Made by a program: the position numbers and the translations under genes. From the NCBI GenBank assembly GCA_041645215.1, contig JBAZQK010000006.1, forward strand, positions 12,116 to 76,115: DNA of 64,000 nucleotides, in the 5' to 3' direction. Below are positions 29,456 to 47,170 of the stretch, piece after piece. Below the pieces are notes generated by a model that did no database searches, was not told the DNA's origin, and was given only the letters and a program-made list of their open reading frames with translations. The stretch is from Patescibacteria group bacterium. Lineage in GTDB: Bacteria; Patescibacteriota; Patescibacteriia; Veblenbacterales; UBA10138. Numbering within the stretch: the stretch's first letter is position 1; each line of letters starts with the position of its first letter.

Positions 29456-29689
29456 GTGTGGCGAGGTAGTATTTTGGCATCTTCCGCCACCAGCCCTAAT
29501 TTAGTACCAGCCATCAGGCAGGCGGCAACCATTGTAACAAATGAAGGCGGTTTGACCAGCTATGCCGCCATCGTGGCTAGAGAATTTAAGATTCCTTGCA
29601 TTGTGGAAACCAGAATAGGAACGCAAGTGTTTAAAGATGGTGATGCAGTGGAGGTTGATGCTAATAAGGGGATAGTTAGAAAGTTATGA
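29456..29689 (+). pseudogene. Orphan PEP-utilizing swivel-domain fragment with catalytic His replaced by Tyr (GGLTSYAAI)
   Basis: The 77-aa ORF aligns to the C-terminal ~60 aa of the downstream paralogs (AIVTNEGGxTxHAAIVAREL.IPCI...GD.VEVDAN.G). It has Y where the phosphohistidine normally sits and lacks any N-terminal domain. Confidence 0.45.
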
Positions 29690-32610: not shown

Positions 32611-33255
32611 ATGGAGAATAAAACTTTTTATCTTTGGGATTTGGCTGATACCATTTTTATTGAAAAATGGAACGCTGAATTATCCGGCGTGCCGTCTTTT
32701 AATGCTTATGTGGAGTCTTTGGGATATGATTTAAAAACTATCAGTCCTTTAGATTATGAATTATGTTATGAAAAACCGTATCGTGATGGTTTATATGATT
32801 TATCAATTGCTGATGGATTTAAAGAAGTTCTAACTTGGACGAAAAACAATGGCGTTTTTACTACTGGTAACAAAGAGCAAATTAATTGGCGAGCTGAACA
32901 GTTGTTAAGAAAATATGGGTTTGGCATTCGTGACTTTTTGAAAGAGATATATAGCACTTTTGATTATAGTAACACCAATGTTAAAACCGAAGCTATGTTA
33001 GTAGATTTAATAGGTAAAAAATTTAAGCAAGGGCTTGGGATTATAGTTTATACAGACGATAGAGAGGCTAATTGCAGGTTTTTTATTAGTGCAGCTGAAA
33101 AGTGTCAAAATAATGGGGTGAGGGTTGAATATCGGGTGTATAATTTAGGTAATGATGATAGTAAGTTAGAAAAATTGTCAGATAACTATTATAAAATTGG
33201 CGATCTATATCAATTGAAAGATAATGAAGAAAATTTATTAAAGCCCAATGATTAA
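32611..33255 (+). CDS. HAD-like hydrolase (atypical motif I DxxD), putative phosphatase
   Basis: YLWDLADTIF (motif I-like), VFTTGN (motif II-like), IIVYTDDREAN (motif IV-like). Shares the atypical DxxD(T/V) with 39597..40205. Confidence 0.45.
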   Translation: MENKTFYLWDLADTIFIEKWNAELSGVPSFNAYVESLGYDLKTISPLDYELCYEKPYRDGLYDLSIADGFKEVLTWTKNNGVFTTGNKEQINWRAEQLLRKYGFGIRDFLKEIYSTFDYSNTNVKTEAMLVDLIGKKFKQGLGIIVYTDDREANCRFFISAAEKCQNNGVRVEYRVYNLGNDDSKLEKLSDNYYKIGDLYQLKDNEENLLKPND

Positions 33256-34741: not shown

Positions 34742-35053
34742 ATGCCACGATATAATGAAAAAAGAATACCATATCAGACTCAAGAAAAACTTCTTGATAT
34801 GTTTTGTGATATTCTTAAAAACATGAAAAAACGTCAGGACGTTAAAGATTTTTTAAAAGATTTATTAAATCGTCAAGAACGAGTAATGTTGGTACGCCGA
34901 TTACTGATAGCTGATATGTTACTTAGAAAGTTATCTTATCGTGAAATTACAAATAAATTACGGTGTGGCTCTTCAACTATAGCGCGAGTAGAGCGTTGGT
35001 TAAATTTTGGTCGAGGTGGTTACAAACTAGCTATTAATCATAAAGTAAAATAA
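34742..35053 (+). CDS. TrpR-like/YerC-YecD family DNA-binding protein
   Basis: ...REITNKLRCGSSTIARVERWLNFGRGGYKLAI matches the YerC/YecD (Trp repressor-like) HTH. AGGAGG lies 12 nt upstream of ATG 34742; the tracked ORF starts at 34715, inside the palindrome. Confidence 0.65.
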   Translation: MPRYNEKRIPYQTQEKLLDMFCDILKNMKKRQDVKDFLKDLLNRQERVMLVRRLLIADMLLRKLSYREITNKLRCGSSTIARVERWLNFGRGGYKLAINHKVK

Positions 35054-35057: not shown

Positions 35058-35085
35058 TGCTCCCATGCTCTAGAGCATGGGAGCA
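35058..35085. promoter_or_regulatory. Second copy of the palindrome (TGCTCCCATGCTCTAGAGCATGGGAGCA)
   Basis: 28-bp perfect dyad sharing the 24-bp core CTCCCATGCTCTAGAGCATGGGAG. It sits immediately upstream of paralog 4. Confidence 0.55.
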
Positions 35086-35094
35086 AAGGTCTGT

Positions 35095-36615
35095 ATGATA
35101 ATTAGTGAATTAACTAAAGAAATAAAGCGGGAAACTTGGTGGAGCGAAGAGTCACCAGGCACGCCCATGTTTTCTTTGTGGATACAGCAGTTCGTACGGC
35201 AATCTAAGTATTGGCATCCTAAATTGCCTAATATTATATTGGTATTTTTTAAAAATGATTTTTTATATGAAGAAACTCCGGAAAAGCAAAAACTGCAAAT
35301 CTGGAATTATGTTTTAGAACAGTATATTAAATATCCACAAATTCAACTGCGTCATTATAAGAAGTGGAAAGCCGTGTCTGAGAATTTAGTTAAAGAAAGG
35401 GAGTGGTTTCTAAAACACAAACATCATTTAAACAGCCAAGAATTGGCTGCGTCGTTTGCCAAAGTCAGCCAATTGATTAATGAGCACTGGCGGATTACTT
35501 GGGTGCAGGAAAGCGCTGATATTTTTACCACCTATGAGTTGCCGCAATTAATTCAAAAAGAAAATCCTAATTTATCGCTGGAACAGGCGACAGGTATTGC
35601 CATAATTTTATGCGCACCTGAATTTTTAAGTTTTATGGAAGAACAGCACACAGAACTTTTAAAAATAGCTATTTTGTACTATAGAAAAATTAAAAATGCT
35701 AAGAGGATTACTGGGGTTGATAAAAGGTTACGTGAAACCATAAATGGATTCTCCCAAAAGTATATTTGGTTATTGTCTAATTATAAAGAAGCTAGGCCTT
35801 TTGGTATTGGGCAAGTTTGGCAACAATTACGCTATGAATGCCAAAATAAAACTTTGTCTAAATTAAAAAAAGATTTAAAGAGTGTTAGAAGCAAAGTAGT
35901 TCGTTTAAAAAGACAAAAAAATAAATTATATCGGGATTTAAGTATTTCCCCCCGGCTAAGAAAAGCTTTTAATCTGCTTACTTTTTGGGCAACATGGATG
36001 GATGAGCGTAAACAAACAGCGCTTGTAGGTAATTGGTATTTGGAATTTTATGCCCGAGAAGTGGCTAAGTGTTTAGGTATTAATATTTGGAATATTAAAT
36101 ATTTTACTGCTGCTGAATTACATCAAGCTTTATCAAAAGGTAAGTTGCCAAATAAACTAGAATTAAAAAAGCGTCGTCGGTTTTGTGTGTTTGCGATTAC
36201 AAAACAAGGCAGCAAGATAGTGGAAAAGATTTATACCGGGGGAAACGCGACTAAATTGTGGTCATTAATATTTACTAAACCAACAAGCAGCCTAATAAAA
36301 GGACAAGTAGCTAGTGCGCCGATAAGTAAAATGAGTGGCAAGGTTCAGATAGTTTTAGACCCGCATCGCGATAAGTTTACCAACGGTCGCATATTGGTTA
36401 CCACTATGACCCGACCAGACTTTGTGCCTTTAATTCGGCGAGCTAGTGCTATAATTACTGATGAAGGCGGTATTACCTGCCACGCCGCCATTATTTCCCG
36501 CGAATTAGGTATTCCTTGTATAATTGGCACTAAAGTAGCTAGTAAGATTTTAAAGAATGGCAATAAAGTAGAATTGGATTTGGCATCAGGTGGGGTTAAA
36601 ATTTATAAAAAATAA
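35095..36615 (+). CDS. PEP-utilizing swivel-domain protein, paralog 4
   Basis: SAIITDEGGITCHAAIISRELGIPCIIGTKVASKILKNGNKVELDLASGG; FWATWMDERK motif. The start may be 35077 instead (inside the palindrome). Confidence 0.7.
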   Translation: MIISELTKEIKRETWWSEESPGTPMFSLWIQQFVRQSKYWHPKLPNIILVFFKNDFLYEETPEKQKLQIWNYVLEQYIKYPQIQLRHYKKWKAVSENLVKEREWFLKHKHHLNSQELAASFAKVSQLINEHWRITWVQESADIFTTYELPQLIQKENPNLSLEQATGIAIILCAPEFLSFMEEQHTELLKIAILYYRKIKNAKRITGVDKRLRETINGFSQKYIWLLSNYKEARPFGIGQVWQQLRYECQNKTLSKLKKDLKSVRSKVVRLKRQKNKLYRDLSISPRLRKAFNLLTFWATWMDERKQTALVGNWYLEFYAREVAKCLGINIWNIKYFTAAELHQALSKGKLPNKLELKKRRRFCVFAITKQGSKIVEKIYTGGNATKLWSLIFTKPTSSLIKGQVASAPISKMSGKVQIVLDPHRDKFTNGRILVTTMTRPDFVPLIRRASAIITDEGGITCHAAIISRELGIPCIIGTKVASKILKNGNKVELDLASGGVKIYKK

Positions 36616-36630: not shown

Positions 36631-38094
36631 ATGAAACTTTATTATATTCAAAGAAAATCCAGCATGTCTTCAATCTTATGGCTTTTGGGTTGTGGTTTAG
36701 GCATGACTCATTACCCAGTTAAGCAAGTTTATGCTGGGTATGATTTGGGTAACACTATTTGGCTGGGTCGTCGTGAGGAAGGGTTTCTGTGCGGCGATAA
36801 ATCTACTCATATTGATAAATTGGTTAGTTCATTTCAAAATTATGTTTTAAAGAATCCACGGCATGTATTTAATATAAAAAAAATATTTTTAAACAGGTCA
36901 CGTAAATTAGTTGGTTTAGTCAAACATTTAGCCAGTTTTGATTATACCGAGGCCAGCAACAGTCAATTGTATGATGATTATAAAAGAGTAGTGGATAGTT
37001 ATAAGGAAGTTTATACTTACGGTGAGCCGTTAGCCATTGCCTTGGGAAATTTTTCCGATAGGATAAAAAAACATTTTATACCCCAGGGCATGACCGATGC
37101 TGATTATGAAATTTTGCTCTTACCCCAGGAACTTTCTTTTGTGCAAAGAGAGAGGCTGGATTTATTGGAAATAGCTTGTCTGGTTAAAAATGGAAAAGTG
37201 GATAAAAAGATTAAACAATTATTACAAAGTCATGTGGCTAAGTATACTTGGTTGCCATATGATTATGGCGTTACCAGTTATAAAATTGACCATTTTATTA
37301 AAGAGCTGAAAAAACTGGTTAACAAGGGGCGGCGGCAAATTTTAGCAAATTATCGCCACCTTGCTAACTATTCTCGAAATTTACAAAAGCAGCAAAATAA
37401 CATAGCGGCTAAATATAAATTTAATAACAAGCAGCAAAGTTTAATTGAAATTGTTAGAACCACTTTTTATTTGGTTGATTATAAAAAAGAATTATTTACG
37501 CAACTTCATTGGTATTCAGAAAGATTATTTATAGAAGTAAGCCGCCGACTAAAAACGCCCCAGCATTTAGTAAGGTATATGTTGCCGTATGAAGTGAGTA
37601 TGTGTTTGCTAAAGGGAGTACCCGTAAAAAAACTGCAAATCCAATCGCGTTACAATAATTGTGTAATTACTATTAAAAAATCAGGAAGGGTGAACGTTAT
37701 TGATGGTAATAAAGCTAAATTGATAATTGATAACTTTATCAGTTCACATAAAAAGGGTGAAAAGCGGGATTATTTATCCGGGCGCGTTGGTAATTCAGGA
37801 AGCGCGCGTGGTTTGGTAAGAGTAATTATGGATGCCAGAAAAATAGATACTTTTAAACATGGGGAAATATTGGTAGCACCCATGACTTCACCCGATTATA
37901 TACTGGCCATACGCAAAGCGGCAGCGATAGTGACGGATGAAGGCGGTACAACCTGCCACGCCGCCATTGTCTCGCGAGAACTTAATATACCCTGCGTTAT
38001 TGCCACCAAGAAAGCCACCCAAGTCTTTAAGACTGGTGATATGGTGGAAGTAGATGCTACGCGTGGTATAGTAAGATTATTAAAATCATCTTAA
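36631..38094 (+). CDS. PEP-utilizing swivel-domain protein, paralog 5
   Basis: AAIVTDEGGTTCHAAIVSRELNIPCVIATKKATQVFKTGDMVEVDATRG. Confidence 0.75.
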   Translation: MKLYYIQRKSSMSSILWLLGCGLGMTHYPVKQVYAGYDLGNTIWLGRREEGFLCGDKSTHIDKLVSSFQNYVLKNPRHVFNIKKIFLNRSRKLVGLVKHLASFDYTEASNSQLYDDYKRVVDSYKEVYTYGEPLAIALGNFSDRIKKHFIPQGMTDADYEILLLPQELSFVQRERLDLLEIACLVKNGKVDKKIKQLLQSHVAKYTWLPYDYGVTSYKIDHFIKELKKLVNKGRRQILANYRHLANYSRNLQKQQNNIAAKYKFNNKQQSLIEIVRTTFYLVDYKKELFTQLHWYSERLFIEVSRRLKTPQHLVRYMLPYEVSMCLLKGVPVKKLQIQSRYNNCVITIKKSGRVNVIDGNKAKLIIDNFISSHKKGEKRDYLSGRVGNSGSARGLVRVIMDARKIDTFKHGEILVAPMTSPDYILAIRKAAAIVTDEGGTTCHAAIVSRELNIPCVIATKKATQVFKTGDMVEVDATRGIVRLLKSS

Positions 38095-38112: not shown

Positions 38113-39600
38113 ATGTCTGGAGCAGTCGCAAGATCAGGGCCTTGGCGGATTAAACCATCGGGTAAATTGCCAATTTTTTTACGTTTTATGATTAATTCCG
38201 GTTTTGACCATAAAATTTCTAATAAGGTTGGCTTTAAAAACCATATAGTTAATCGGGTGTATTTGAATCACATGATGTATTGGCCCGCTAAGGAATATAA
38301 TAAATTTGAAGCGGAAATCATTAACCATTTGAAGAAAAATGATGGCTGGATTGAAAAATATTGTGCTCGTGAACTAAAAAAATCAGAGCATCTTTATAAC
38401 TTGGGTTTACGTTTAAAAAAGGTTGATTGGTCCAGAAAAACTAACCAAGAAATGAGGATCATTCTCAATAGTATATTGGAAAAATATCGCGAGTTGGCCT
38501 GTCCATGGTATGCGCAATATTCTATTGATGTTTATTGCGAGGATGTTATTGAAGAAGAGTTACTAAAGTATATACCCGCTGGCCATCCGGATTTTAGAAA
38601 ACTGGTTTTGATATTTACTGACCCCAAGGCTATGACAGACGTAGCTGAGGAAAGGTGGAATTTAATGAAATTAGCAAAAAAGTTACAGAATAATAAGGAA
38701 AAGATGGATAAACTTTCTACGCAAGTTGTTAATCTTATAAATAAACATCTGGATAAATTTGCTTATATAAACAGAGGTTTAGCCACTAGTAAGCCATATA
38801 ATTTTAGAGATATGGTTAAGAGAATTAAAGAAGCCTGGGCGTCAAAAGAGACTTTAGACAGTTTAATTTATTATAGTTCACCCCAAAAAATAAAAAATGA
38901 TTACAAATGGGCTGTTAAACAAATAAACCCAAGTAAAAATTTTATTAAAATCATTAATCAGGCCAGATTGCACTCTTATACTAGAAATAGGCGCGTTGAA
39001 GCTTTCTTTTTGGCTGATTATGGCGCCAGCTTTATGTACCATGAAATAGCGAAAAGAAGCAAATTTAATCCTAATTGGATTATGGAAGTGTCGATTCCGG
39101 AGATGTATGGAGCTTTAAAGGGCGAACCATTGCCAAGTAAGGAAGAAATGAAAAAAAGATTTACTAATTACGCCATGATTGTAAAGAACGCCAAAACTAC
39201 CATGATAGTTGACCCCAAAAAAATAAAGCAATTGGAAAGAAAATATTATGTTAATGTTAAATCAGCTGATCAAGTGGTGGGGCGTATGGCATGTATTGGT
39301 GGAATTATTAAAGGCCGGGCCAAGGTTTGTTTGGACAAATCGGAGATTGGAAAGGTTAAACGTGGAGATATACTAGTAGCCCAATTTACTACACCCGATT
39401 TTGTACCGGCCATGGAAAAAGCGGCTGCTATAGTTGCTGACCAAGGCGGTTTATCTTCTCATGCCGCTATAGTATCAAGGGAACTGGGCGTACCTTGTGT
39501 AATTGCCACGGATAATGGTACTAGAGTGATAAAAGATAATGATTTGTTGGAGGTTGATGCCCGTAATGGCATTGTTAAGATAATCAAAAGAGCTAAATGA
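38113..39600 (+). CDS. PEP-utilizing swivel-domain protein, paralog 6
   Basis: AAIVADQGGLSSHAAIVSRELGVPCVIATDNGTRVIKDNDLLEVDARNG. Confidence 0.75.
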   Translation: MSGAVARSGPWRIKPSGKLPIFLRFMINSGFDHKISNKVGFKNHIVNRVYLNHMMYWPAKEYNKFEAEIINHLKKNDGWIEKYCARELKKSEHLYNLGLRLKKVDWSRKTNQEMRIILNSILEKYRELACPWYAQYSIDVYCEDVIEEELLKYIPAGHPDFRKLVLIFTDPKAMTDVAEERWNLMKLAKKLQNNKEKMDKLSTQVVNLINKHLDKFAYINRGLATSKPYNFRDMVKRIKEAWASKETLDSLIYYSSPQKIKNDYKWAVKQINPSKNFIKIINQARLHSYTRNRRVEAFFLADYGASFMYHEIAKRSKFNPNWIMEVSIPEMYGALKGEPLPSKEEMKKRFTNYAMIVKNAKTTMIVDPKKIKQLERKYYVNVKSADQVVGRMACIGGIIKGRAKVCLDKSEIGKVKRGDILVAQFTTPDFVPAMEKAAAIVADQGGLSSHAAIVSRELGVPCVIATDNGTRVIKDNDLLEVDARNGIVKIIKRAK

Positions 39601-40205
39601 TCAAAGCAATTTTCTTTGATTCCGGTGACGTTATAGTAAGGGAAGGATTCAATCCCGGTATAGTTGAATATGAAAAAAAATATAGTTTGCTGCCAGGATC
39701 TCTATACAAATCTGCACACGACAGGCAATATTGGAAAGATTTTACCTTGGGTAATATATCCGAAAATGAATACTTTGCGGATGTAGCAGACGATTACAAA
39801 AAAGCAAAAATTGATACCACAGATTTTAAAAAGATTATCCAGGATAATTTTAAATTAAATGAAGAATTGTTAGATTTTTTAATGACAATTAAAAATAAAT
39901 TTATTTTAGGAGTAATCTCTAATCATCCCAAGGAATTTTTTGAATGGTGCAGACAATATTTTGGTTGGGATAAGATTTTTACCGTTTATGCGGTATCTGG
40001 TGATTTGCATGTTAGAAAACCCGATAAGAGAATATTTGATTATGCTGTTAAAAAAGCTGGTGTGGCAGGTGGCGAATGTATCTATGTTGACAATCGCTCG
40101 GACAGAATAGAGGGTGCACAGTTAGCTGGTATGCAGGTAATTATTTATCAGAATATCAATCAATTAAAAACTGATCTATCTAATTTTATTAATGTAACCG
40201 ATTAA
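39597..40205 (+). CDS. HAD-superfamily hydrolase (putative phosphatase)
   Basis: IFFDSGDVIV (motif I region), LGVISN (II), VRKPDKRIFDYA (III), CIYVDNRSDRIEGAQLAGM (IV). ATGA overlap with paralog 6. Confidence 0.6.
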   Translation: MIKAIFFDSGDVIVREGFNPGIVEYEKKYSLLPGSLYKSAHDRQYWKDFTLGNISENEYFADVADDYKKAKIDTTDFKKIIQDNFKLNEELLDFLMTIKNKFILGVISNHPKEFFEWCRQYFGWDKIFTVYAVSGDLHVRKPDKRIFDYAVKKAGVAGGECIYVDNRSDRIEGAQLAGMQVIIYQNINQLKTDLSNFINVTD

Positions 40206-40208
40206 TTT

Positions 40209-41204
40209 ATGTTAAAAGAAAACAATTACGAAACTCATGAAAAGATGATGGCCACTACTTATATAGATTTAACCAGACATGGTAACCGATATGGCGGGCC
40301 GATGGAAATTACTTTTTACGACGGCAGCAAAATTAAATTTGATGATTCTACTGACCTTACCGAAGAAGGTCGAAAAGATGCTGTAAATTTTGGTGCCGAA
40401 GGAATTCCACCCGAAGTTACATTAGTACATTTACGTGGTGGTGACGAGCCAAGACACGGTCAAACTGGCGATGATATAGTAAAGGGAAGTGAAAAATTTG
40501 GAATACACAAAGAGGGGGAGGAGCCGTCGCCAGTTAGAGACAAGGCCGGTCGGGTAAAGGGAGCGAGACGAGGGCAAGGGGTTGATTATGCTAGTTCTGG
40601 TTTAATGCCATTTCTCAAACCATTTAAGCAAATGATAAATGATGAACTTAATAAGATAGTTTCTACTTTATCTCCAGAGGAGCAAGAGAAATTAAAAACC
40701 AATCCGGAACTTAGAGCCAAATATCGTGAGCAAGCACAAGTTTTCGGCCTTAAAGCTGCTATTAATGACCCAAAATTGGCTGAAATAGCTGCCGAGAATG
40801 AGGCTAATGAGTTGCTTCATGTTGTTGAGTTGTCGCGCAGGGGGGTGAAAGCTGGTGAAATTAAATCAATCCCTATAGTTGGTAGTGGTCTTTTTGCCGA
40901 ATCTTTGTTAAAACACGCTTTGGTGGTGGAGGATTTAGAAACCGCTAATAAAAAGACTGGATTTGAGTCGGTTGATGAAATTGGTGGATTTACTAAACAA
41001 GCCACTTCTTTTAGGATAAAACTTATGCGAGATGCGGAGTTGGGTGACGCGCGTAATATGGAAGATTTTAATAAAGATACCAAAGTTGAATACGAATTTA
41101 CTGACCCAGAAAGAAAGAAGTTGTTTGGCGGCAAAAAAGTATCTTTGGACTGGAATATTGTTAATGAATTGGCAAATAAGTTTAGGTTTAAGCGCCAAGG
41201 TTAA
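40209..41204 (+). CDS. Hypothetical protein; possible histidine-phosphatase-superfamily domain at N-terminus
   Basis: IDLTRHGNRYGGP...DLTEEGRKDAVNFG resembles the RHG...LTxxGxxxA signature of PGM/SixA-like phosphatases. The rest is uncharacterised. Confidence 0.3.
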   Translation: MLKENNYETHEKMMATTYIDLTRHGNRYGGPMEITFYDGSKIKFDDSTDLTEEGRKDAVNFGAEGIPPEVTLVHLRGGDEPRHGQTGDDIVKGSEKFGIHKEGEEPSPVRDKAGRVKGARRGQGVDYASSGLMPFLKPFKQMINDELNKIVSTLSPEEQEKLKTNPELRAKYREQAQVFGLKAAINDPKLAEIAAENEANELLHVVELSRRGVKAGEIKSIPIVGSGLFAESLLKHALVVEDLETANKKTGFESVDEIGGFTKQATSFRIKLMRDAELGDARNMEDFNKDTKVEYEFTDPERKKLFGGKKVSLDWNIVNELANKFRFKRQG

Positions 41205-41210
41205 CGAAAA

Positions 41211-42041
41211 ATGAATAATTTACCAAAATTAAAAATAGTGTCAATAACTAAATTGTGTTTACATGAAACTGTAGACCCAAAGCGTGTTTTGAAATTAAAA
41301 AAAATAATTAAAAAAGCTCACCTTTTTACCAATCCGCCAATTGTAAGTTATATACCAGCGATGGATAAATATTTAGTATTAGATGGTGCTAACCGTACTA
41401 CTACGCTTAAAGAATTGAATTTTAAATATATTTTAGTGCAATTAGTGGAATATAAAGACAGTGTTGTTGATTTATTAACTTGGAACCATTTTGTGTCCCA
41501 AATTAGTTTGCAAAGAGTTATTGATTTATTTAAAGGCTATAATAAAAAACTTAATATATTAAAGGTTAAATCTTCACAATCTGCTAAAAATTTGTTAGAC
41601 ACTAAACCAGGTGTAGTTTATATAACAGATGGCAAATTACATTATGTAATTAATAACTTTAAAGATTTTAAGGATGAAATTGCAATTTTGAATTTTGCAG
41701 TAAATATTTACAAAGGTAAACATAATTTTAATCGGATATTGGGTGATAATTATAAAATTTTAAAAAAGGAATACCCGAAAAATAAAGTACTGTTTGTATA
41801 TAAAAAACTACTTCAGCAAGATATTATAAAAGTGGTTAGAGCCGGACTCTATGTCCCGAGTGGTATATCGAGACATATAATTCAAGGTCGCGCTTTAAGA
41901 GTAGATATACCGATTGTTTGGCTAAAAGGTGCGGCCTCTTTGTTGTCATCTAATAAGAAGCTAAAAAAGTTAATTAACTCCCGACTTTCTTTGGGACAAA
42001 TTAGATATTACAGTGAGCCAACTTTTATTTTTAATGATTAG
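41211..42041 (+). CDS. ParB/Sulfiredoxin-like domain protein
   Basis: IVSITKLCLHETVDPKRVLKLKKII...PPIVSYIPAMDKYLVLDGANRTTTLKELN fits the ParB N-terminal/Srx fold pattern (hhDG.hR...L). Confidence 0.4.
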   Translation: MNNLPKLKIVSITKLCLHETVDPKRVLKLKKIIKKAHLFTNPPIVSYIPAMDKYLVLDGANRTTTLKELNFKYILVQLVEYKDSVVDLLTWNHFVSQISLQRVIDLFKGYNKKLNILKVKSSQSAKNLLDTKPGVVYITDGKLHYVINNFKDFKDEIAILNFAVNIYKGKHNFNRILGDNYKILKKEYPKNKVLFVYKKLLQQDIIKVVRAGLYVPSGISRHIIQGRALRVDIPIVWLKGAASLLSSNKKLKKLINSRLSLGQIRYYSEPTFIFND

Positions 42042-42046
42042 ATTTT

Positions 42047-43534
42047 ATGGCAAAAATTCCTAGTTGGCAATATTATTTTGCACGTAAATTTTCCTTACAG
42101 CGTTTTGAGATTATATCACGGGTTTTTTATTCGCCCTTTTATTTTAAGCATTTTAAAGTTAATTTAAAAAATATTTTGGTCAAACCAGGCCAAAGTCATA
42201 ATTATGAAATTTGGTTAGACAGAGATGAATATAAAATAGCCGTTAATAGAGTATATAAAACAGTCTGTAAGAATTATCATACCTATAAATATTATCGTAA
42301 AATTTTTATACAGACTCAACTTAGATTTCTTAAGGTGGCGATGATGGTGGCTCGCCAAACAAACAATAGATTAACTAATAAAGAATTGGGTAAATTATAT
42401 AGGTTGTTTACTCGCCACCTACAGAAGCTTAATAGTAAGCCAATTATAGTAGTGTTTATGATTGAACCGTTGGTTAGTTCAGCTGCGGTAATGATTTTGA
42501 CGGATATTCTCAAACGAAATAGTAAAATGAATGAGTATGATAATGGTCTTTCTATAATATTTTCACCTGATACTAAAACAGCCGTACCGCAGATGCGGCA
42601 GGCGTTGTTAAAAATTGCCTTAGGAGTTAAAACTGGTAGGTTAAATAAAACAAAGACAAGATATTTGCTTAATAGAGTCGTGAAGCAATATAATTTTTTG
42701 CCATGTTACGATATTATTGATAAGCCATGGGATTATGATTATTTTAAAAACGAGTTAAAGGGAATACTTAAAAGAACTGTAGTGGAATTAAAAAGCGAAT
42801 TAAAAGATATGAACATAGTGTGGCGTCAACGTAAAAATAATTTTAAAGCTTTTTTATCAAGATATGACATTAGCCAATCGGAAGAAGATATTTTAAGAAT
42901 TGCACACGATTTAGTTTTTATAAAAGACGAGAGAGATGATTATCGGCGTCGCGGTGGTTACTATGGTCGAAGACTTTTTGCCGAGATTGGCCAAAGATTA
43001 GACGTAGATTTACGCGCAGCTTGTTATTTAACTGTAGACGAAACAGAAGGTTTTTTATTTAGAGATATTAAACCATCTCGTGAGTTACTAAAAGAAAGGC
43101 AGACAACTTATTTATTATTACGTAAGTTAGGATCTCCTACTGCAGTAGCAAGTGGAGGTCAGATAAAAGCAATTATAAAAAATGAACATTTTCTATCATT
43201 AGATCAGTCTAAAGTTGATGAAATAACTGGTGTAGCAGGTTCTGTTGGTATGGCTAGAGGTTCAGTTATTATTGTTAATACTAAACATGATTTACGACGT
43301 GTCTTGCCTGGTTCAATTATGATAGCAGTTACTACCAGTCCGGATTATGTACCCGTTATGAGATTGTGTAAGGCGATTGTAACTAACGAAGGTGGAATAA
43401 CCTCTCACGCCGCCATAGTTTGTCGAGAATTAAGAATACCATGTATAGTTGGTACTAAAATAGCAACCAGAATATTCAAAGATGGCGATTTAGTAGAGGT
43501 TGACACCAAGAGGGGAATAGTGAGAAAATTGTAA
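42047..43534 (+). CDS. PEP-utilizing swivel-domain protein, paralog 7
   Basis: KAIVTNEGGITSHAAIVCRELRIPCIVGTKIATRIFKDGDLVEVDTKRG. Confidence 0.75.
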   Translation: MAKIPSWQYYFARKFSLQRFEIISRVFYSPFYFKHFKVNLKNILVKPGQSHNYEIWLDRDEYKIAVNRVYKTVCKNYHTYKYYRKIFIQTQLRFLKVAMMVARQTNNRLTNKELGKLYRLFTRHLQKLNSKPIIVVFMIEPLVSSAAVMILTDILKRNSKMNEYDNGLSIIFSPDTKTAVPQMRQALLKIALGVKTGRLNKTKTRYLLNRVVKQYNFLPCYDIIDKPWDYDYFKNELKGILKRTVVELKSELKDMNIVWRQRKNNFKAFLSRYDISQSEEDILRIAHDLVFIKDERDDYRRRGGYYGRRLFAEIGQRLDVDLRAACYLTVDETEGFLFRDIKPSRELLKERQTTYLLLRKLGSPTAVASGGQIKAIIKNEHFLSLDQSKVDEITGVAGSVGMARGSVIIVNTKHDLRRVLPGSIMIAVTTSPDYVPVMRLCKAIVTNEGGITSHAAIVCRELRIPCIVGTKIATRIFKDGDLVEVDTKRGIVRKL

Positions 43535-43560
43535 GACTACTGAATTTTTATATTTTTAAT

Positions 43561-44397
43561 ATGTTTAATAAGATAAGTTTTATTCAACAATTATTTCTAA
43601 ACCAAGCCAAACAGGGGAAACGACGTAAAATAGCCATTGGTATTTGGCGGCCGGAACAGGCAGTAGTAGACGGTTTAAAAGCCGCTACTGATTATGCGGA
43701 TTTAACAGTGGTTGGCTGTGATATACCTGGTCTTGATTGTATACCAACTGTTAACGATGATGAGGCTAGCCGCAAAATAATTGAATTGTTAAGGACAAGC
43801 AAGGTTGAAGGCTTTGTTAGGGCTCAACTCAAAGATTCCTACACTCACAAGGTATATTTAGAAACCTTTAAAAAAGAAGAACCTAAATTTAAATTCTGTC
43901 CATTTACCATAACTAATGATGATTATTGGTTTACCATTTCCAGTCCGTCTAATTATAACTCTTTAACTTTGGAAGCAAAACTAGCGGAGGCTGAGAGGGC
44001 CGCTAAATGGCTTAGTGATTTAGGTATAAAGCCAAAAATTGGTGTTACCAGTACTAGGCGTTTATCCGGGCGAGTTGGTGAATTTGGTTTACTGGAGGAA
44101 ATTGCTGAGAACTGTGAAAAAACCACTAAGCATTTAACTGATATGGGTTTTGAAGTAAAGGAATATTATATTGAGTACGAACGAGCCGTGTGGGAAGGGT
44201 GTAATTTAATAATTCCGTCAACTGGAATGATTGGCAATACCTGGTCTAAGGGTTTAACTTTTCTTGGCGGTTGGACTAATGTGTGCTGTCCTATGTTAGA
44301 TGAAGGTGTGTATTATGATGATACAGCTCGTAATCATGTAAATTGGTTTTGGCCTATTATCTCAACAGTTGCTTGGATAAATAGGGAAAAATCGTAG
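43561..44397 (+). CDS. Hypothetical protein (weak resemblance to phosphate acyl/acetyltransferase PTA/PlsX fold)
   Basis: KRRKIAIGIWRPEQAVVDGLKAATDYADLTVVG loosely matches the PTA_PTB N-terminal pattern. Low confidence. Confidence 0.25.
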   Translation: MFNKISFIQQLFLNQAKQGKRRKIAIGIWRPEQAVVDGLKAATDYADLTVVGCDIPGLDCIPTVNDDEASRKIIELLRTSKVEGFVRAQLKDSYTHKVYLETFKKEEPKFKFCPFTITNDDYWFTISSPSNYNSLTLEAKLAEAERAAKWLSDLGIKPKIGVTSTRRLSGRVGEFGLLEEIAENCEKTTKHLTDMGFEVKEYYIEYERAVWEGCNLIIPSTGMIGNTWSKGLTFLGGWTNVCCPMLDEGVYYDDTARNHVNWFWPIISTVAWINREKS

Positions 44398-44478
44398 GTT
44401 GACATATTTAATGTTTTGTATTACTATTAACAGTTAAATAAATCTAAACAAAAAAGCAAAAGGAGGAGAAAGATAATT

Positions 44479-45777
44479 ATGGAGATGAAAAAAGAATTAT
44501 CAGAATCTACAGAGAACCTTGAAAACAAGGAACGTTTTAAGTTGGCCGCTAAAAATATCATTGACTGTTTTTCCTTTAATCCGGAAAAAGAAAGTTTGCT
44601 GGTTATAACTGATGGCAAGGTTATTGAAACTAATAATGATTTTATAGAAGCCATATCAGGTGAATTAAATTTACGTACGCAGGATAAACAACGTACTAAG
44701 GGCAATTGGGAGATGGTGGTTGTACCGGCATCACCTAAATCTGCTACGCCGCTGGGCGAAATGATTGGCGAAAAAATGAAAAATCGTCCGGTGTTAATAG
44801 TAACCTCAATGTCACGTTCTCATTCTAAAGAAACAGGAGCTGCCTTTAGAGGTGATATATCAGATAAGTCGGTATTTGATGAAATTATTGCCAGCAAAAC
44901 TTTTCGTAATACAGTAGCCAATGGTTATTCGGCATATACTCCGGAAAGGTTAGAAACTATTGGTAATAAATTACCTGATTCCACCTACGAAAAAATGAAA
45001 CTGTTTGCTAAAAACAATCGCAGCCGAATCATTTCTATTACTAAGGGTCATAATCCTTATGAGATATTAACTCGTGGCGCGGTAGAGGAGCCGGTGGAAA
45101 ATCTTAAGGAAAGAGCCAGTAAAGTAAATGAAATCATGAAAGACGTTGTGAGGGTTCATATTACTTCGTCCTTGGGAACAGATATTTGGTTAAGCCTCAG
45201 CACTGATTTAAAAGAAGTTGAAGATGGTAACTTGGGTAAGCCGGGTAGTTTATCTAATTACCCAATAGGTGAGTGGTCGTGTTCGCCTGATTGGAAAGAT
45301 TCTGATGGTGTATTGGTAATTGATGGTCCGTGCGGAGGTAACATTAACCAAGATATTATTGATCAAAGTAGTCCATTTATTTTGACTTTTAAAAACGGCG
45401 AGGTAATTGATATTAAAGGTGAAGGCCAGGCGTTAGAAATGTGGAAAAATTATCTTGATAGTGGCAACAACGAAAAGAATCAGGCTTACAAACTAGCTGA
45501 ATTTGCGGTAGGGACTAACACCAAGGCGCTTAAAGATAAACCGCGTGAATTTTGGGGATCCTCAGAAGGAGAAAAAGTCTATGGTACGGCCCATATAGCC
45601 GTTGGCAGTAATGGTTCTTTCGGGCGTACACCAGATGATCCTAATTATAATTCAGCGGCGGTACATTGTGATATGGTTCTGGGTTTGCACAAAAAAAATC
45701 GCGTGACAGTTGAATGTCAGAAAAAAGATGGAGCCAAATTCGTTTTGATTGATAATGGTGAGCCAAAAGAATATTAA
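44479..45777 (+). CDS. Putative M29-family (aminopeptidase T/AmpS-like) aminopeptidase
   Basis: Length ~430 aa. The C-terminal GTAHIAVGSN... block resembles the conserved HIAxG region of M29 peptidases. Confidence 0.35.
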   Translation: MEMKKELSESTENLENKERFKLAAKNIIDCFSFNPEKESLLVITDGKVIETNNDFIEAISGELNLRTQDKQRTKGNWEMVVVPASPKSATPLGEMIGEKMKNRPVLIVTSMSRSHSKETGAAFRGDISDKSVFDEIIASKTFRNTVANGYSAYTPERLETIGNKLPDSTYEKMKLFAKNNRSRIISITKGHNPYEILTRGAVEEPVENLKERASKVNEIMKDVVRVHITSSLGTDIWLSLSTDLKEVEDGNLGKPGSLSNYPIGEWSCSPDWKDSDGVLVIDGPCGGNINQDIIDQSSPFILTFKNGEVIDIKGEGQALEMWKNYLDSGNNEKNQAYKLAEFAVGTNTKALKDKPREFWGSSEGEKVYGTAHIAVGSNGSFGRTPDDPNYNSAAVHCDMVLGLHKKNRVTVECQKKDGAKFVLIDNGEPKEY

Positions 45778-45848
45778 TTATTTCTTCATATTTTAAAATA
45801 TCCCTGATTATGTATAATGTAGTCAGGGATTAATTTTTATTAATCATT

Positions 45849-46859
45849 ATGCAATTTATTCTACCTTTTTCTAAAATATCCAAAAAAGACGTAGGTTTAG
45901 CCGGTGGGAAGGGGGCGAGTTTGGGGGAAATGTCACAGGCGGGCATCCCGGTGCCGCCGGGGTTTGTGGTGCTGGCCACGGCTTTTGACCGGTTTTTGCA
46001 CGAAACCGGGTTGGAGGTGGATATTGAGGCGCAGTTAAAAAAGGTTAATTATAAGGATGTTAATTCAGTTGATAAATACAGTGCGGTAATTCGTGATTTG
46101 ATTCATCGCGCCAAAATGCCTAGAGATTTGCAAAGCGAAATTATGAACGCTTATGCCAATCTGGTGAGTGGACAACGGCAAATAGTTAATAATAAGGCAG
46201 TCACCAGCCATAAACTATCAGCTATCAGCCAACTGCCATTTTATGTCGCGGTGCGGTCTTCGGCCACGGCTGAGGATTCCACCCAGGCCTCGTGGGCCGG
46301 GGAGTTGGAGACTTATTTAAATACCACCGAGAAAGATTTATTAAGGTATGTGAAGGATTGCTGGTCGTCCCTGTTTACGCCGCGGGCGATTTTTTATAGA
46401 CGTGAGAAAAAAATGCATAAAGCCAAAGTTTCAGTGGCGGTAGTGGTGCAGGCTATGGTGCAATCGGAAATTTCGGGTGTTGCTTTTACCGTGCACCCGG
46501 TTACCAAAGACCGTAACCAAATGATTATTGAGGCTGGCTATGGTTTGGGCGAGGCGATTGTGTCCGGCCAGATTACGCCTGATTCCTATATTATAGATAA
46601 AAAAAACTTGTCGCTATTGGATATCAACGTGGCCGAGCAAACGCGGCAGTTGATCGGTTTGGTTAAGGGCGGAAATAAGTGGCAAGCCGTGGCTAAAAAA
46701 GACGGCGCTAAACAAAAATTAACCGGCCAGCAAATAATTGAACTGGCTAAAATTTGCGTTAACATTGAACAGCATTATAAATTTCCCTGTGATATTGAAT
46801 GGGCGTACTATAAGGGCAAATTCTACATAACTCAATCCCGCCCCATCACCACGCTTTGA
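45849..46859 (+). CDS. Stand-alone PEP-utilizing-enzyme N-terminal ATP-grasp nucleotide-binding domain (PPDK_N; PEP synthase/RPH-like)
   Basis: KDVGLAGGKGASLGEMSQAGIPVPPGFVV matches the N-terminal signature of PEP synthase/rifampin phosphotransferase. At 336 aa it equals the ATP-grasp domain only, with no swivel or substrate domain. Confidence 0.8.
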   Translation: MQFILPFSKISKKDVGLAGGKGASLGEMSQAGIPVPPGFVVLATAFDRFLHETGLEVDIEAQLKKVNYKDVNSVDKYSAVIRDLIHRAKMPRDLQSEIMNAYANLVSGQRQIVNNKAVTSHKLSAISQLPFYVAVRSSATAEDSTQASWAGELETYLNTTEKDLLRYVKDCWSSLFTPRAIFYRREKKMHKAKVSVAVVVQAMVQSEISGVAFTVHPVTKDRNQMIIEAGYGLGEAIVSGQITPDSYIIDKKNLSLLDINVAEQTRQLIGLVKGGNKWQAVAKKDGAKQKLTGQQIIELAKICVNIEQHYKFPCDIEWAYYKGKFYITQSRPITTL

Positions 46860-46941
46860 ATCTATCAGTCTTTAGCCCTTTACGGCGGGACAAGCGCGAA
46901 AGGGTAAATGGATAAGCCAGACCTAGAGCAAAACATAATGA

Positions 46942-47112
46942 GATGGTTCCAAAACTCTTTCGTGGCGAAATTTCAGTTTTTCTTGCGAGACGAGGAAGGC
47001 GAGCAAAAAGAATTGAAACGTAGTAGAACTACGGTGAAATCCTTTTTGCGAAGCCTGACGAAGTCGCAGCCGAAAAGATGAAATTACAGCAGAAATGAGT
47101 TTTGGAACCATC
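46942..47112 (+). mobile_element. MITE-like element family 2, copy 2 (intergenic)
   Basis: TIRs GATGGTTCCAAAAC (46942-46955) and GTTTTGGAACCATC (47099-47112). Homologous throughout to 19727-19899. The tracked ORF 46923..47111 (-) is spurious. Confidence 0.75.
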
Positions 47113-47170
47113 TCAATATCATTTTACATAACCCTACCAAATTAGTAGGGTTATGTTATAATGGCAAAGT

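What the first reader, a model, noticed from the sequence alone, without database searches (positions are those of the whole stretch)
45849..46859. ATP-grasp PPDK_N domain encoded as an isolated gene
The KDVGLAGGKGASLGEMSQAGIPVPPGFVV signature and overall length match only the nucleotide-binding domain of PEP synthase/RPH. The ORF terminates before any swivel or substrate domain. An intergenic gap and a MITE copy (46942-47112) follow. Either this is a genuine stand-alone module servicing the upstream paralogs, or the MITE truncated a formerly longer gene.
Basis: partly seen in the sequence, partly recalled or inferred. Interest (0 to 1): 0.6.

Follow-up and report, generated by a model that had tools for sequence, protein, structure and literature searches.

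The report
Shared ATP-binding subunit for seven kinases
The isolated ATP-binding gene is intact, not a transposon-truncated remnant. It most likely supplies phosphate from ATP to seven neighbouring "substrate-binding + phospho-histidine" proteins, a one-to-many version of a known two-part kinase that is widespread in tiny symbiotic bacteria and archaea but has not been studied.

Summary
ORF 45849-46859 encodes a 336-aa protein that is only the PPDK_N ATP-grasp domain (Pfam E 1e-97). A roughly 180-nt palindromic MITE-like repeat lies 80 nt downstream.

Truncation by the MITE is refuted.
- The 120 closest homologues, all named ones Patescibacteria, are stand-alone proteins of 307-345 aa (one of 467 aa). 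They are 65-79% identical to the window protein.
- All 12 aligned sequences share the C-terminal ...SRPITTL (one continues with KK).
- An orthologous locus lacks the repeat but has the same stop.
- No swivel or PEP-binding remnant follows the gene.

The gene closes a same-strand cluster of seven old paralogs (23-32% identical). Each has a helical domain like the rifampin-binding domain of rifampin phosphotransferase (RPH), then a C-terminal swivel domain with the catalytic His. This matches the split architecture of the known two-component dikinases HpeHI, CreHI and PpsAB.

What appears undescribed is the one-to-many layout.
- In related genomes, a stand-alone PPDK_N gene usually has several partner genes nearby on the same strand (median 3).
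- Several archaea and bacteria fuse one PPDK_N to 3-6 partner modules in a single 1,500-2,650-aa protein.

Substrates and physiological role are unknown. I rate it a new variant of a known kind, of moderate to good interest.

The parts
45849..46859 (+). Stand-alone ATP-grasp (PPDK_N) subunit, 336 aa; proposed shared ATP-binding 'hub'
   Evidence: Pfam PF01326 E 1e-97. PDB sequence hits include RPH (5fbs), PEP synthases (8a8e) and the stand-alone HpeI (9goj, E 4e-49). The AF2 model matches the RPH ATP-grasp domain (TM 0.82) and HpeI (E 5e-25). RPH residues K22/R117/T136/E297 correspond to K21/R136/T155/E317 here and are conserved in orthologues. Residues ~108-130 are a lineage-variable loop insertion that is disordered in the model.
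29686..31182 (+). Partner 1: helical substrate-type domain + C-terminal phospho-His swivel domain (498 aa)
   Evidence: PF00391 at residues 420-490, E 6e-25. The catalytic His is invariant in alignment A1.
31186..32607 (+). Partner 2 (473 aa)
   Evidence: PF00391 E 4e-26; alignment A1.
33248..34690 (+). Partner 3 (480 aa)
   Evidence: PF00391 E 2e-24; alignment A1.
35077..36615 (+). Partner 4 (512 aa)
   Evidence: PF00391 E 8e-23; alignment A1. Its ATG lies inside a 26-bp palindrome.
36631..38094 (+). Partner 5 (487 aa)
   Evidence: PF00391 E 2e-27; alignment A1.
38113..39600 (+). Partner 6 (495 aa)
   Evidence: PF00391 E 2.5e-24; alignment A1. It overlaps the HAD gene by 4 nt.
42047..43534 (+). 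Partner 7 (495 aa); the one modelled
   Evidence: PF00391 E 8e-25. AF2 model pLDDT 94.3: helical domain ~59-353 plus swivel 355-495. Best PDB fold matches are rifampin phosphotransferase 5fbt/5fbu/5hv1, E 4e-13, TM 0.51-0.57.
29456..29689 (+). Swivel-only fragment (77 aa) with the catalytic His replaced by Tyr; a degenerate eighth copy
   Evidence: tblastn 46-64% identity to the swivel domains of all seven partners. Sequence GGLTSYAAIVAREF.
39597..40205 (+). HAD-family hydrolase (probable phosphatase); the most recurrent accessory gene of the cluster
   Evidence: PF00702/PF13419. A HAD gene is present in the cluster of many related loci. It is fused to a partner module in P0333.
43561..44397 (+). 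MtxX/Mmp4-like protein (278 aa), possibly a PTA/PlsX-fold phosphate acyltransferase relative; accessory
   Evidence: TIGR03270 E 4.5e-16, below cut-off. PDB 9nzy, E 1e-7. Weak hhalign match to the PTA_PTB domain that P0244 fuses to partner modules: probability 65%, E 6e-5. Same gene in L006, L016, L017, L034 and L070.
41211..42041 (+). SbnI / free-serine-kinase-like protein (276 aa); accessory, lineage-restricted
   Evidence: NF033589 E 1e-24, below cut-off. PDB SbnI 5uje E 4e-16 and serine kinase 5x0b E 8e-5. Also in L016.
44479..45777 (+). Divergent M29/NicX-fold protein (432 aa); accessory
   Evidence: PF02073 E 4e-12; a precomputed NicX hit. Same position in L006 and L016.
40209..41204 (+). 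Unknown 331-aa protein inside the cluster
   Evidence: No family or PDB hit. Contains an RHG-like motif (TRHGNRYGGP) that was not verified. Not detectably similar to the His_Phos_1-like gene of L001.
32611..33255 (+). Unknown 214-aa protein inside the cluster
   Evidence: No significant family hit. phmmer hits in L040 and L060; the L040 hit is the same ORF that also matches the HAD query.
34742..35053 (+). Trp-repressor-family regulator (103 aa), bracketed by two identical 26-bp palindromes at 34697-34722 and 35059-35084
   Evidence: PF01371 E 9e-18. Palindromes. Not found in the related loci.
45800..45830 (+). Hairpin (14 pairs) followed by a T-run, between the M29-like gene and PPDK_N, with TATAAT (45813-45818) in its loop
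   Evidence: Terminator-like site; sequence. Its role as a terminator or promoter is inferred only.
46939..47117 (.). MITE-like palindromic repeat, intergenic, 80 nt after the stop codon
   Evidence: Absent from the orthologous spacer of L003.

Best explanation
The gene encodes an intact, ancestrally separate ATP-grasp subunit of a split RPH-type dikinase.

Proposed cycle:
1. The 336-aa protein binds MgATP.
2. The C-terminal swivel domain of a partner protein docks on it in trans.
3. The partner's catalytic His takes the beta-phosphate of ATP, releasing AMP and Pi.
4. The swivel domain swings back to the partner's own helical domain and passes the phosphate to a small molecule bound there.

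The window has seven divergent partners and only one ATP-grasp gene. I therefore propose that the ATP-grasp protein is a shared hub serving all seven, each with its own still unknown substrate.

The neighbouring HAD hydrolase, and perhaps the PTA-fold-like protein, would then process the phosphorylated products.

What is shown: domain content, folds, conserved catalytic residues, conserved gene clustering, and natural fusions.
What is inferred: phosphotransfer in trans, the one-to-many stoichiometry, and small-molecule acceptors.

The MITE-like repeat inserted into the spacer downstream and did not alter the gene.
For: Intactness:
- The best 120 homologues are PPDK_N-only proteins of 307-345 aa (one of 467 aa), 65-79% identical.
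- All 12 aligned sequences share the C-terminal ...SRPITTL.
- L003 has the same stop and no repeat.
- ATP-binding residues equivalent to RPH K22, R117, T136 and E297 are conserved.
- The model matches the RPH ATP-grasp domain and stand-alone HpeI.

Partners:
- Seven same-strand genes carry an invariant GGxTxHAAI swivel His.
- The partner 7 model (pLDDT 94) matches RPH best over both its RIF-binding-like and swivel domains.
- Partners have no PEP-binding TIM-barrel domain, so they have no way of their own to charge the His.

Precedent: HpeHI, CreHI and PpsAB are characterised two-component dikinases with exactly this split (PMC12167813).

Linkage:
- Of 32 related loci with at least 8 kb on both sides of a stand-alone PPDK_N gene, 30 have at least one partner gene and 25 have at least two (median 3, maximum 6).
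- All 155 partner genes counted across the 65 loci with a stand-alone PPDK_N gene are on the PPDK_N strand.

One-to-many:
- The 64-kb window has a single PPDK_N gene.
- Natural fusions carry one PPDK_N with several swivel modules: L065 (2350 aa, 1+5), L077 (2388 aa, 1+4), L068 (1541 aa, 1+3), P0321 (2648 aa, 1+6) and P0246 (2309 aa, 1+4).
- The ATP-grasp protein is much better conserved across lineages (65-79%) than partner 7 (most orthologues 36-54%; one close relative 83%). That fits a protein constrained by many interfaces.
- Each partner's best hit in another genome (40-66% identity) is closer than any paralog in the window (25-38%), so the paralogy is old and maintained.
Against: - There is no biochemical or expression evidence. 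Nothing shows that any partner, let alone all seven, is charged by this protein.
- Partners are shorter (473-512 aa) than HpeH (about 71 kDa), and I could not map the RPH phosphate-site residues R666/E667/K670 onto them.
- A hairpin with a T-run (45800-45830) and a sharp composition break separate the gene from its partners: GC3 is 0.50 for PPDK_N against 0.22-0.36 for the partner block. Co-transcription is therefore doubtful, and the two may have different histories.
- 10 of 65 related loci with a stand-alone gene show no partner in the retrieved flank, though many of those contigs are short.
- Other ATP-grasp genes elsewhere in this genome cannot be excluded. L032 carries both a canonical PEP synthase and a stand-alone copy.
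- Some family members fuse the partner module to HTH_3 or receiver domains. This hints that part of the family signals rather than metabolises.
Confidence: 0.75

Rival explanations
1. The gene is the 5' remnant of a full-length ppsA or RPH-type gene whose swivel and substrate domains were lost when the MITE-like element inserted.
For: A MITE-like repeat lies 80 nt downstream. NCBIfam's best model is PEP synthase, matched only over its N-terminal third.
Against: - The stop position matches in the aligned orthologues, including L003, which lacks the repeat.
- There is no coding remnant downstream and no PEP-utilizers_C anywhere in the window.
- The gene is only 38% identical to a real PEP synthase from a related genome, against 54-79% to its homologues in the related genomes, most of them stand-alone.
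Confidence: 0.01
2. The split dikinase is real but works one-to-one. The ATP-grasp protein serves only one partner, for example the nearest, partner 7. The other six are charged by other proteins encoded elsewhere, or are inactive.
For: All characterised split systems (HpeHI, CreHI, PpsAB) are 1:1 pairs. The rest of this genome was not available. L032 shows that a genome can hold more than one PPDK_N-containing gene.
Against: - Natural single-chain proteins carry one PPDK_N and 3-6 partner modules.
- Related genomes have a median of three partners per stand-alone gene.
- All seven partners keep the catalytic His and swivel motif.
- No other PPDK_N gene occurs in the 64 kb.
Confidence: 0.12
3. 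The mechanism is the same, but the role is defensive. The partners form a battery of RPH-like enzymes that inactivate antibiotics or other toxic small molecules made by hosts and competitors. This concerns the physiological role, so it is not exclusive of the best explanation.
For: - RPH is the closest solved fold for the partners.
- Divergent substrate domains on a constant catalytic core are typical of resistance and detoxification families.
- An in-silico survey reported rph-like hits in CPR (Candidate Phyla Radiation) genomes (PMC8651080).
- The partner block is AT-rich relative to its flanks, as in acquired islands.
Against: - Sequence identity to RPH is only about 14% over the substrate domain, so nothing links it to rifamycins.
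- The partner paralog groups are old and conserved across lineages, not rapidly turning over.
- Conserved linkage and fusion with HAD and PTA-type domains points to onward metabolism of the phosphorylated products.
Confidence: 0.2
4. The system is a phosphorelay rather than a set of metabolic kinases. The ATP-grasp protein would charge several phospho-His carrier proteins whose helical domains sense ligands and whose phosphorylation state controls other proteins or DNA binding. This would be analogous to Enzyme I and HPr of the sugar phosphotransferase system (PTS).
For: Some family members fuse the module to HTH_3 DNA-binding domains (P0279, P0332) or to a receiver domain (P0262). A Trp-repressor-type regulator sits inside this cluster.
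Against: The seven window partners have no DNA-binding or output domain. Their closest characterised relatives, RPH and HpeH, transfer phosphate to small molecules. The HAD fusion fits metabolite chemistry.
Confidence: 0.08

Closest known systems
Two-component phenolic dikinases: HpeHI (Rhodococcus), CreHI, and phenylphosphate synthase PpsAB (Thauera)
   Same: The gene split is the same: a roughly 35-40 kDa stand-alone ATP-grasp protein (HpeI, CreI, PpsB) and a second protein with an RPH-type substrate domain followed by a C-terminal swivel His domain. The genes are adjacent. HpeI (9goj) is a direct sequence hit (E 4e-49) and fold hit (E 5e-25).
   Different: - Those systems are 1:1 pairs; here one ATP-grasp gene sits with seven partners.
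- Partners here are about 480-510 aa, against about 610-640 aa.
- No aromatic-catabolism context (carboxylases and the like) was seen in the scanned neighbourhood.
- The hosts are genome-reduced Patescibacteria and DPANN archaea, not aromatic degraders.
- The substrates are unknown.
Rifampin phosphotransferase (RPH, e.g. Listeria RPH-Lm, PDB 5fbs/5hv1)
   Same: It has the same three modules and presumably the same toggling-His mechanism. It is the best solved fold match for both the ATP-grasp protein (TM 0.82, 36% identity) and the partner (E 4e-13). The ATP-site residues are conserved.
   Different: RPH is one polypeptide. Here the ATP-grasp module is a separate gene. The substrate domain is only about 14% identical, so rifamycin specificity cannot be inferred. 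NCBIfam RPH models score far below their cut-offs.
Phosphoenolpyruvate synthase (PpsA, EC 2.7.9.2)
   Same: The ATP-grasp and swivel domains are most similar in sequence to those of PEP synthases (8a8e: E 3e-68 and 5e-47).
   Different: There is no PEP/pyruvate-binding TIM-barrel domain (PF02896) in the gene, the partners or anywhere in the window. Database names such as 'pyruvate, water dikinase' for these proteins are therefore misleading.
Enzyme I / HPr of the sugar phosphotransferase system (analogy only)
   Same: One phosphoryl donor feeds several phospho-His carriers of different specificity, and the swivel domain is homologous to that of Enzyme I.
   Different: The donor here is ATP through an ATP-grasp domain, not PEP. 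There are no HPr, EII or membrane components.
PigC / RedH / HapC prodiginine-condensing enzymes
   Same: They have the same ATP-grasp and swivel chassis, and they use phosphorylation to activate a substrate for a following reaction (NCBIfam hits).
   Different: They are single polypeptides of about 880 aa in pigment gene clusters. Scores here are far below their cut-offs.

Membership tests
Two-component RPH-type dikinases (HpeHI / CreHI / PpsAB architecture) | ATP-grasp (PPDK_N) module encoded as a separate protein of about 35-40 kDa | tested here: met
   336 aa, PPDK_N only. Orthologues are all stand-alone. Sequence and fold hits to HpeI 9goj.
Two-component RPH-type dikinases (HpeHI / CreHI / PpsAB architecture) | Partner protein with an RPH-type helical substrate domain followed by a C-terminal swivel domain | tested here: met
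   PF00391 at the C-terminus of all seven. The partner 7 model (pLDDT 94) matches RPH best, TM 0.51-0.57. Only partner 7 was modelled.
Two-component RPH-type dikinases (HpeHI / CreHI / PpsAB architecture) | Conserved catalytic His in the swivel domain and conserved ATP-phosphate-binding residues in the ATP-grasp domain | tested here: met
   His is invariant in GGxTxHAAI across the seven partners. K21/R136/T155/E317 correspond to RPH K22/R117/T136/E297.
Two-component RPH-type dikinases (HpeHI / CreHI / PpsAB architecture) | Genes for the two components are neighbours | tested here: met
   Same strand in the window. 30 of 32 full-flank related loci have at least one partner, and all 155 partner genes across the 65 loci with a stand-alone PPDK_N gene are on the same strand. 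Co-transcription was not tested, and a hairpin with a T-run lies upstream of the gene.
Two-component RPH-type dikinases (HpeHI / CreHI / PpsAB architecture) | Dikinase chemistry: ATP + substrate gives AMP + Pi + phospho-substrate through a phospho-His intermediate formed in trans | not testable with these tools
   Needs enzyme assays.
Two-component RPH-type dikinases (HpeHI / CreHI / PpsAB architecture) | Phenolic substrate and an aromatic-catabolism gene context (a feature of the characterised subfamily) | tested here: not met
   The scanned neighbours (genes 13185-47575) are HAD, SbnI-like, MtxX-like, M29-like, a TrpR-like regulator, and housekeeping and glycosyltransferase genes. No carboxylase or ring-cleavage genes were seen. 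I therefore file it under the architecture, not under the phenolic kinases.
Phosphoenolpyruvate synthase (PpsA) | Three domains in one chain: PPDK_N, central swivel, and C-terminal PEP/pyruvate-binding domain (PF02896); score above the NCBIfam equivalog cut-off | tested here: not met
   339 bits against a cut-off of 598; only model positions 5-337 of 798 are matched. No PF02896-like sequence anywhere in the window. A true PpsA in L032 is only 38% identical.
Rifampin phosphotransferase (RPH) | Single polypeptide with ATP-grasp, RIF-binding and swivel domains; score above the NCBIfam cut-off | tested here: not met
   NF041857 scores 275 bits against a cut-off of 999 for the ATP-grasp gene and 60 bits for partner 7. 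The modules are split across genes.
Rifampin phosphotransferase (RPH) | Rifamycin-binding pocket and the R666/E667/K670 phosphate network | tested here: inconclusive
   The fold matches, but identity is about 14%. E313 and R351 (partner 7 numbering) are invariant in all seven partners.
MITE (miniature inverted-repeat transposable element) | Short non-coding element with terminal inverted repeats, several copies, and target-site duplications | tested here: met
   About 180 nt with 16-nt perfect terminal inverted repeats. Two copies in the window at 77-78% identity. 3-nt flanking direct repeats (AAT, AAG). An empty site in L003. Only two copies were seen, no autonomous parent was identified, and 3-nt flanking repeats can arise by chance.

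The most novel reading that the evidence does not exclude
Patescibacteria and DPANN archaea share a previously unrecognised hub-and-spoke phosphorylation system. A single, highly conserved ATP-grasp protein would charge a whole family of interchangeable modules, each with a helical substrate domain and a swivel His domain. The helical-domain family comprises at least about 5,000 sequence clusters. Between 3 and 7 modules occur per genome, and sometimes they are all fused into one giant protein.

In this reading the system is these genome-reduced symbionts' general way of activating or trapping scavenged metabolites at the cost of ATP to AMP. The linked HAD and PTA-type enzymes would act on the phosphorylated, possibly acyl-phosphate, products.
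Probability: 0.3. Interest if true: 0.8.

Novelty: new variant of a known kind. Interest (0 to 1): 0.58.

Why it matters
- **Annotation.** These stand-alone PPDK_N proteins are named 'pyruvate, water dikinase' in some sources, yet they have no pyruvate/PEP-binding domain. Metabolic reconstructions of CPR and DPANN organisms that count them as PEP synthase would overstate gluconeogenic capacity.
- **Enzymology.** Split RPH-type dikinases were described as a subfamily in 2025, and the characterised ones (HpeHI, CreHI, PpsAB) are 1:1 pairs acting on phenolic compounds. A single ATP-grasp subunit serving up to seven specificity subunits would be a modular, combinatorial design. The natural 1+3 to 1+6 fusions offer constructs for testing it directly.
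- **Biology of ultra-small symbionts.** A genome of roughly 1 Mb that spends about 16 kb on this cluster, conserved across bacterial and archaeal episymbiont lineages, implies an important unknown function. Finding the substrates could show what these organisms take from, or defend against, their hosts.

Tried and rejected
**Rejected**
- MITE truncation or pseudogene. Rejected on orthologue lengths and termini, the empty site, and the absence of remnants.
- True PEP synthase. No PEP-binding domain, and scores are below cut-off.
- Anti-phage defence system. No PADLOC hits for eight cluster proteins.
- RNA genes in the spacer. No Rfam family at gathering threshold and no tRNA anywhere in the window.

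**Led nowhere or stayed inconclusive**
- The 331-aa cluster protein could not be tied to the His_Phos_1-like genes seen in related clusters: BLASTP E 4.8, with no Pfam, NCBIfam or PDB hit.
- The MtxX-like protein shows no BLASTP similarity to the PTA_PTB domain fused to partner modules in P0244 and only a weak profile match.
- The Trp-repressor-like gene has no counterpart in the 80 related loci.
- Weak Epimerase_2 hits on the giant proteins overlap swivel domains with no stretch passing on its own, so I disregarded them.
- Five of the six literature searches found no description of this cluster in CPR or DPANN. The only related item was an in-silico resistome survey listing rph-like hits.
- A predicted complex of the ATP-grasp protein with a partner was not attempted. 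The structure tool takes single chains of window or database sequences only.
- Whole-genome counts of PPDK_N genes could not be made.
Full report
**1. The observation**

ORF 45849-46859 (+) is present as described: 336 aa, ATG to TGA. The quoted motif is residues 13-41.
- Pfam finds a single domain, PPDK_N (PF01326, E 1e-97), covering residues 17-335.
- NCBIfam PEP-synthase, RPH and PigC models all match only with their N-terminal third, far below their cut-offs. For example, PEP synthase scores 339 bits against a cut-off of 598, over model positions 5-337 of 798.
- The protein ends ...QSRPITTL, which is the ATP-grasp domain boundary in RPH and PEP synthase.
- Residues equivalent to the RPH ATP-site residues K22, R117, T136 and E297 are K21, R136, T155 and E317. 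They are invariant or nearly so in orthologues.
- An AF2 model (pLDDT 77) matches the RPH ATP-grasp domain (TM 0.82, 36% identity), the stand-alone HpeI (9goj, E 5e-25) and a PEP synthase.
- The only unusual feature is a ~23-aa loop insertion at residues ~108-130. It is shared in part by two homologues and is disordered in the model.

**2. The downstream spacer and the repeat**

There are 311 nt between the stop codon and the next gene, an Rrf2-family regulator at 47171.
- An element at about 46939-47117 has perfect 16-nt terminal inverted repeats and folds into one long hairpin (-81 kcal/mol, z = -9.6).
- A second copy at 19722-19908 is 77-78% identical. Both copies are flanked by 3-nt direct repeats. 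The 'MITE' call is reasonable.
- The element starts 80 nt after the stop codon.
- In the orthologous locus L003 the order PPDK_N, Rrf2, SOD, SufCBD is the same and the PPDK_N stop is at the same place. The spacer there is only 95 nt and lacks the element.
- The GC-rich palindromic motif after the stop, and the hairpin with TATAAT before Rrf2, are retained on either side of the insertion in the window.
- All three frames of 46860-47170 are short and interrupted by stops. tblastn with the seven paralogs and with a true PEP synthase finds nothing there.

**3. Is the short gene ancestral?**

Yes.
- The 120 best homologues are all PPDK_N-only proteins of 307-345 aa, with one of 467 aa. They are 65-79% identical to the window protein, and every homologue that carries a source name is labelled Patescibacteria or a member lineage.
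- All 12 sequences in alignment A3 share the C-terminal ...SRPITTL; one continues with KK.
- A scan of one genome per species found at least 568 genomes with a relative.
- Among the best 80 loci, about four fifths carry a stand-alone gene of 310-378 aa.
- One of those genomes (L032) has both a canonical three-domain PEP synthase and a stand-alone copy. The PEP synthase is only 38% identical to the window protein. The stand-alone gene is therefore a separate lineage, not a fragment of ppsA.

**4. What it works with**

Upstream and on the same strand lie seven genes of 473-512 aa: 29686, 31186, 33248, 35077, 36631, 38113 and 42047.
- Their last ~75 residues are the PEP-utilizers swivel domain with an invariant GGxTxHAAI catalytic His.
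- Their first ~380 residues have no Pfam family.
- Overall they are only 23-32% identical to each other, and 14-22% over the N-terminal part.
- A model of partner 7, built from 59 homologues (pLDDT 94.3), shows a large helical domain followed by the swivel domain.
- The best solved matches for that model are the rifampin phosphotransferase structures, aligned over both the rifampin-binding and swivel domains (E 4e-13, TM 0.51-0.57).
- None of the partners has a PEP-binding domain, and no such domain exists anywhere in the window. They have no way of their own to charge the His.
- The window contains no second PPDK_N sequence.

**5. The known precedent**

Rhodococcus HpeHI was characterised in 2025 as a two-component dikinase.
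- HpeI is a stand-alone ATP-grasp protein (PDB 9GOJ). HpeH carries the RPH-like substrate domain and the swivel domain.
- The swivel His is essential, AMP is the product, and the complex is transient.
- CreHI and phenylphosphate synthase PpsAB are built the same way (PMC12167813).
- The RPH mechanism, in which the swivel His shuttles about 49 Å between the ATP-grasp site and the substrate site, is described in PMC4844700.

The window gene pair therefore has the defining architecture of this class. An isolated PPDK_N gene is not a novelty in itself.

**6. What differs: one-to-many**

Three lines of comparative evidence support a shared hub.

(a) Gene neighbourhoods. I searched the ORFs of the related loci with profiles built from alignments A1 and A3.
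- Of 32 related loci with at least 8 kb on both sides of a stand-alone PPDK_N gene, 30 have at least one partner gene.
- 25 of the 32 have at least two. The median is 3 and the maximum is 6.
- Across all 65 loci with a stand-alone gene, all 155 partner genes are on the PPDK_N strand.

(b) Natural fusions.

| Protein | Source label | Length (aa) | PPDK_N | Swivel modules |
|---|---|---|---|---|
| L065 | Woesearchaeota | 2350 | 1 | 5 |
| L077 | archaeon | 2388 | 1 | 4 |
| L068 | Patescibacteria | 1541 | 1 | 3 |
| P0321 | not named | 2648 | 1 | 6 |
| P0246 | not named | 2309 | 1 (internal) | 4 |

About a dozen loci have a simple RPH-like 1+1 fusion of 672-836 aa without a PEP-binding domain.

(c) Conservation asymmetry.
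- The ATP-grasp protein is 65-79% identical across lineages. Most orthologues of partner 7 are 36-54% identical, with one close relative at 83%. This is what one expects of a protein constrained by many interfaces.
- Each window partner has a closer relative in another genome (40-66%) than in its own (25-38%). The paralogs are old and individually maintained.
- A profile of the helical domain alone finds 4,980 sequence clusters (E ≤ 1e-3) among 1.84 billion representatives. Many of these are multi-module proteins.

A rough neighbour-joining tree places most fused forms in one subclade among stand-alone forms. It has no support values, so I draw no direction of evolution from it.

**7. Accessory genes and hints to chemistry**

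- A HAD-family hydrolase (39597-40205) overlaps the end of partner 6 by 4 nt. HAD genes recur in the cluster in many genomes. One family member fuses HAD to the C-terminus of a partner module (P0333).
- Another family member fuses a PTA_PTB phosphate-acyltransferase domain between modules (P0244). The window's MtxX/Mmp4-like protein (43561-44397) gives only a weak profile match to that domain: probability 65%, E 6e-5.
- An SbnI/serine-kinase-like protein and an M29/NicX-fold protein complete a trio that is also seen in L016. L006 keeps the MtxX-like and M29-like genes in the same order.
- Some family members carry an N-terminal HTH_3 domain or a receiver domain.

These links favour phosphorylation of small molecules followed by further processing. 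They do not identify substrates, and they leave room for a regulatory role in part of the family.

**8. Regulation and composition**

- The partner block (29686-45777) has GC3 of 0.22-0.36. PPDK_N has 0.50, like the flanking housekeeping genes at 0.44-0.56.
- A 14-pair hairpin followed by a T-run, with TATAAT in its loop, lies in the 71-nt spacer upstream of PPDK_N.
- I infer, without proof, that the hub is expressed independently of its partners. In vitro the HpeHI rate rose linearly with HpeI up to at least a 500-fold molar excess over HpeH, and no stable complex was detected. Independent expression would fit that behaviour.
- The composition break could equally mean that the partner block has a different evolutionary history.

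**9. Verdict**

- The gene is a member of the split RPH-type dikinase architecture. It is not a PEP synthase, an RPH, or a phenolic kinase.
- The one-hub, many-partner arrangement, its natural fusions, and its spread across Patescibacteria and DPANN archaea were not found described in the searchable literature.
- I rate it a new variant of a known kind. Confidence is about 0.75 in the mechanism class, somewhat less in the one-to-many claim, and low in any specific physiological role.

Noticed in passing
window 29456-29689 (+): A 77-aa swivel-domain-only ORF lies just upstream of partner 1. It is 46-64% identical to the partners' swivel domains, but the catalytic His is replaced by Tyr (GGLTSYAAIV). 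It is probably the remnant of an eighth partner gene or a degenerate decoy. Short swivel-only ORFs also occur in related clusters, for example L005 (118 aa) and L034.
   Followed up: partly
window 34697-35084: The 386-nt 'gap' between partners 3 and 4 holds a 103-aa Trp-repressor-family gene (34742-35053, PF01371 E 9e-18). It is bracketed by two identical perfect 26-bp palindromes, GCTCCCATGCTCTAGAGCATGGGAGC, at 34697-34722 and 35059-35084. The second overlaps the start codon of partner 4. This looks like a dedicated regulator with operators, or paired terminators. It is not found in the 80 related loci.
   Followed up: partly
window 19722-19908: The second copy of the MITE-like repeat lies inside the 3' end of the Wzy/O-antigen-ligase-like ORF 18230-19933. 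It may have replaced that gene's original C-terminus and stop.
   Followed up: no
window 29686-46859: There is a sharp composition break. All 15 ORFs tabulated from partner 1 to the M29-like gene have GC3 of 0.22-0.36. PPDK_N has 0.50, and the flanking housekeeping genes (RRF, RseP, Rrf2, SOD, SufCB) have 0.44-0.56.
   Followed up: partly
L065:10001-17053, L077:9983-17149, L068:9965-14590; P0321, P0246: Giant single ORFs of 1,541-2,648 aa in DPANN archaea and Patescibacteria encode one PPDK_N domain plus 3-6 tandem helical + swivel modules.
   Followed up: partly
P0333, P0244, P0279, P0332, P0262, P0380 (family members elsewhere): The helical + swivel module is fused in other organisms to HAD hydrolase, PTA_PTB phosphate acyltransferase, HTH_3 DNA-binding and response-regulator receiver domains. 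One member has a sub-threshold match to an intein splicing domain.
   Followed up: no
window 40209-41204 (+): A 331-aa protein of unknown family inside the cluster contains TRHGNRYGGP, reminiscent of the RHG motif of histidine phosphatases. Related clusters carry His_Phos_1-like genes at comparable positions, but no similarity to them could be shown.
   Followed up: partly
window 45849-46859, residues ~108-130: A ~23-aa insertion relative to the 312-315-aa norm of the family. It is partly shared with P0003 and P0048, lies in a variable surface loop and is predicted to be disordered.
   Followed up: partly
window 46876-46904 and 47126-47161; L003, L006: A GC-rich palindromic motif (..TTCGCGCGAA..GGG) follows the PPDK_N stop codon in orthologous loci. 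A 15-bp hairpin overlapping a TATAAT box precedes the Rrf2 start. The MITE-like element sits exactly between them in the window.
   Followed up: no
loci L006, L008, L011, L014, L027 and others: Several genome records that carry this CPR-type cluster are titled 'uncultured Gammaproteobacteria' or 'Deltaproteobacteria'. These labels are probably placeholders or binning errors, and taxonomic counts based on the titles should be treated with care.
   Followed up: no
one search hit list: Stand-alone PPDK_N proteins of this family are named 'pyruvate, water dikinase' by one source although they lack the swivel and PEP-binding domains. This is a likely systematic mis-annotation that affects metabolic reconstructions of CPR and DPANN genomes.
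   Followed up: no
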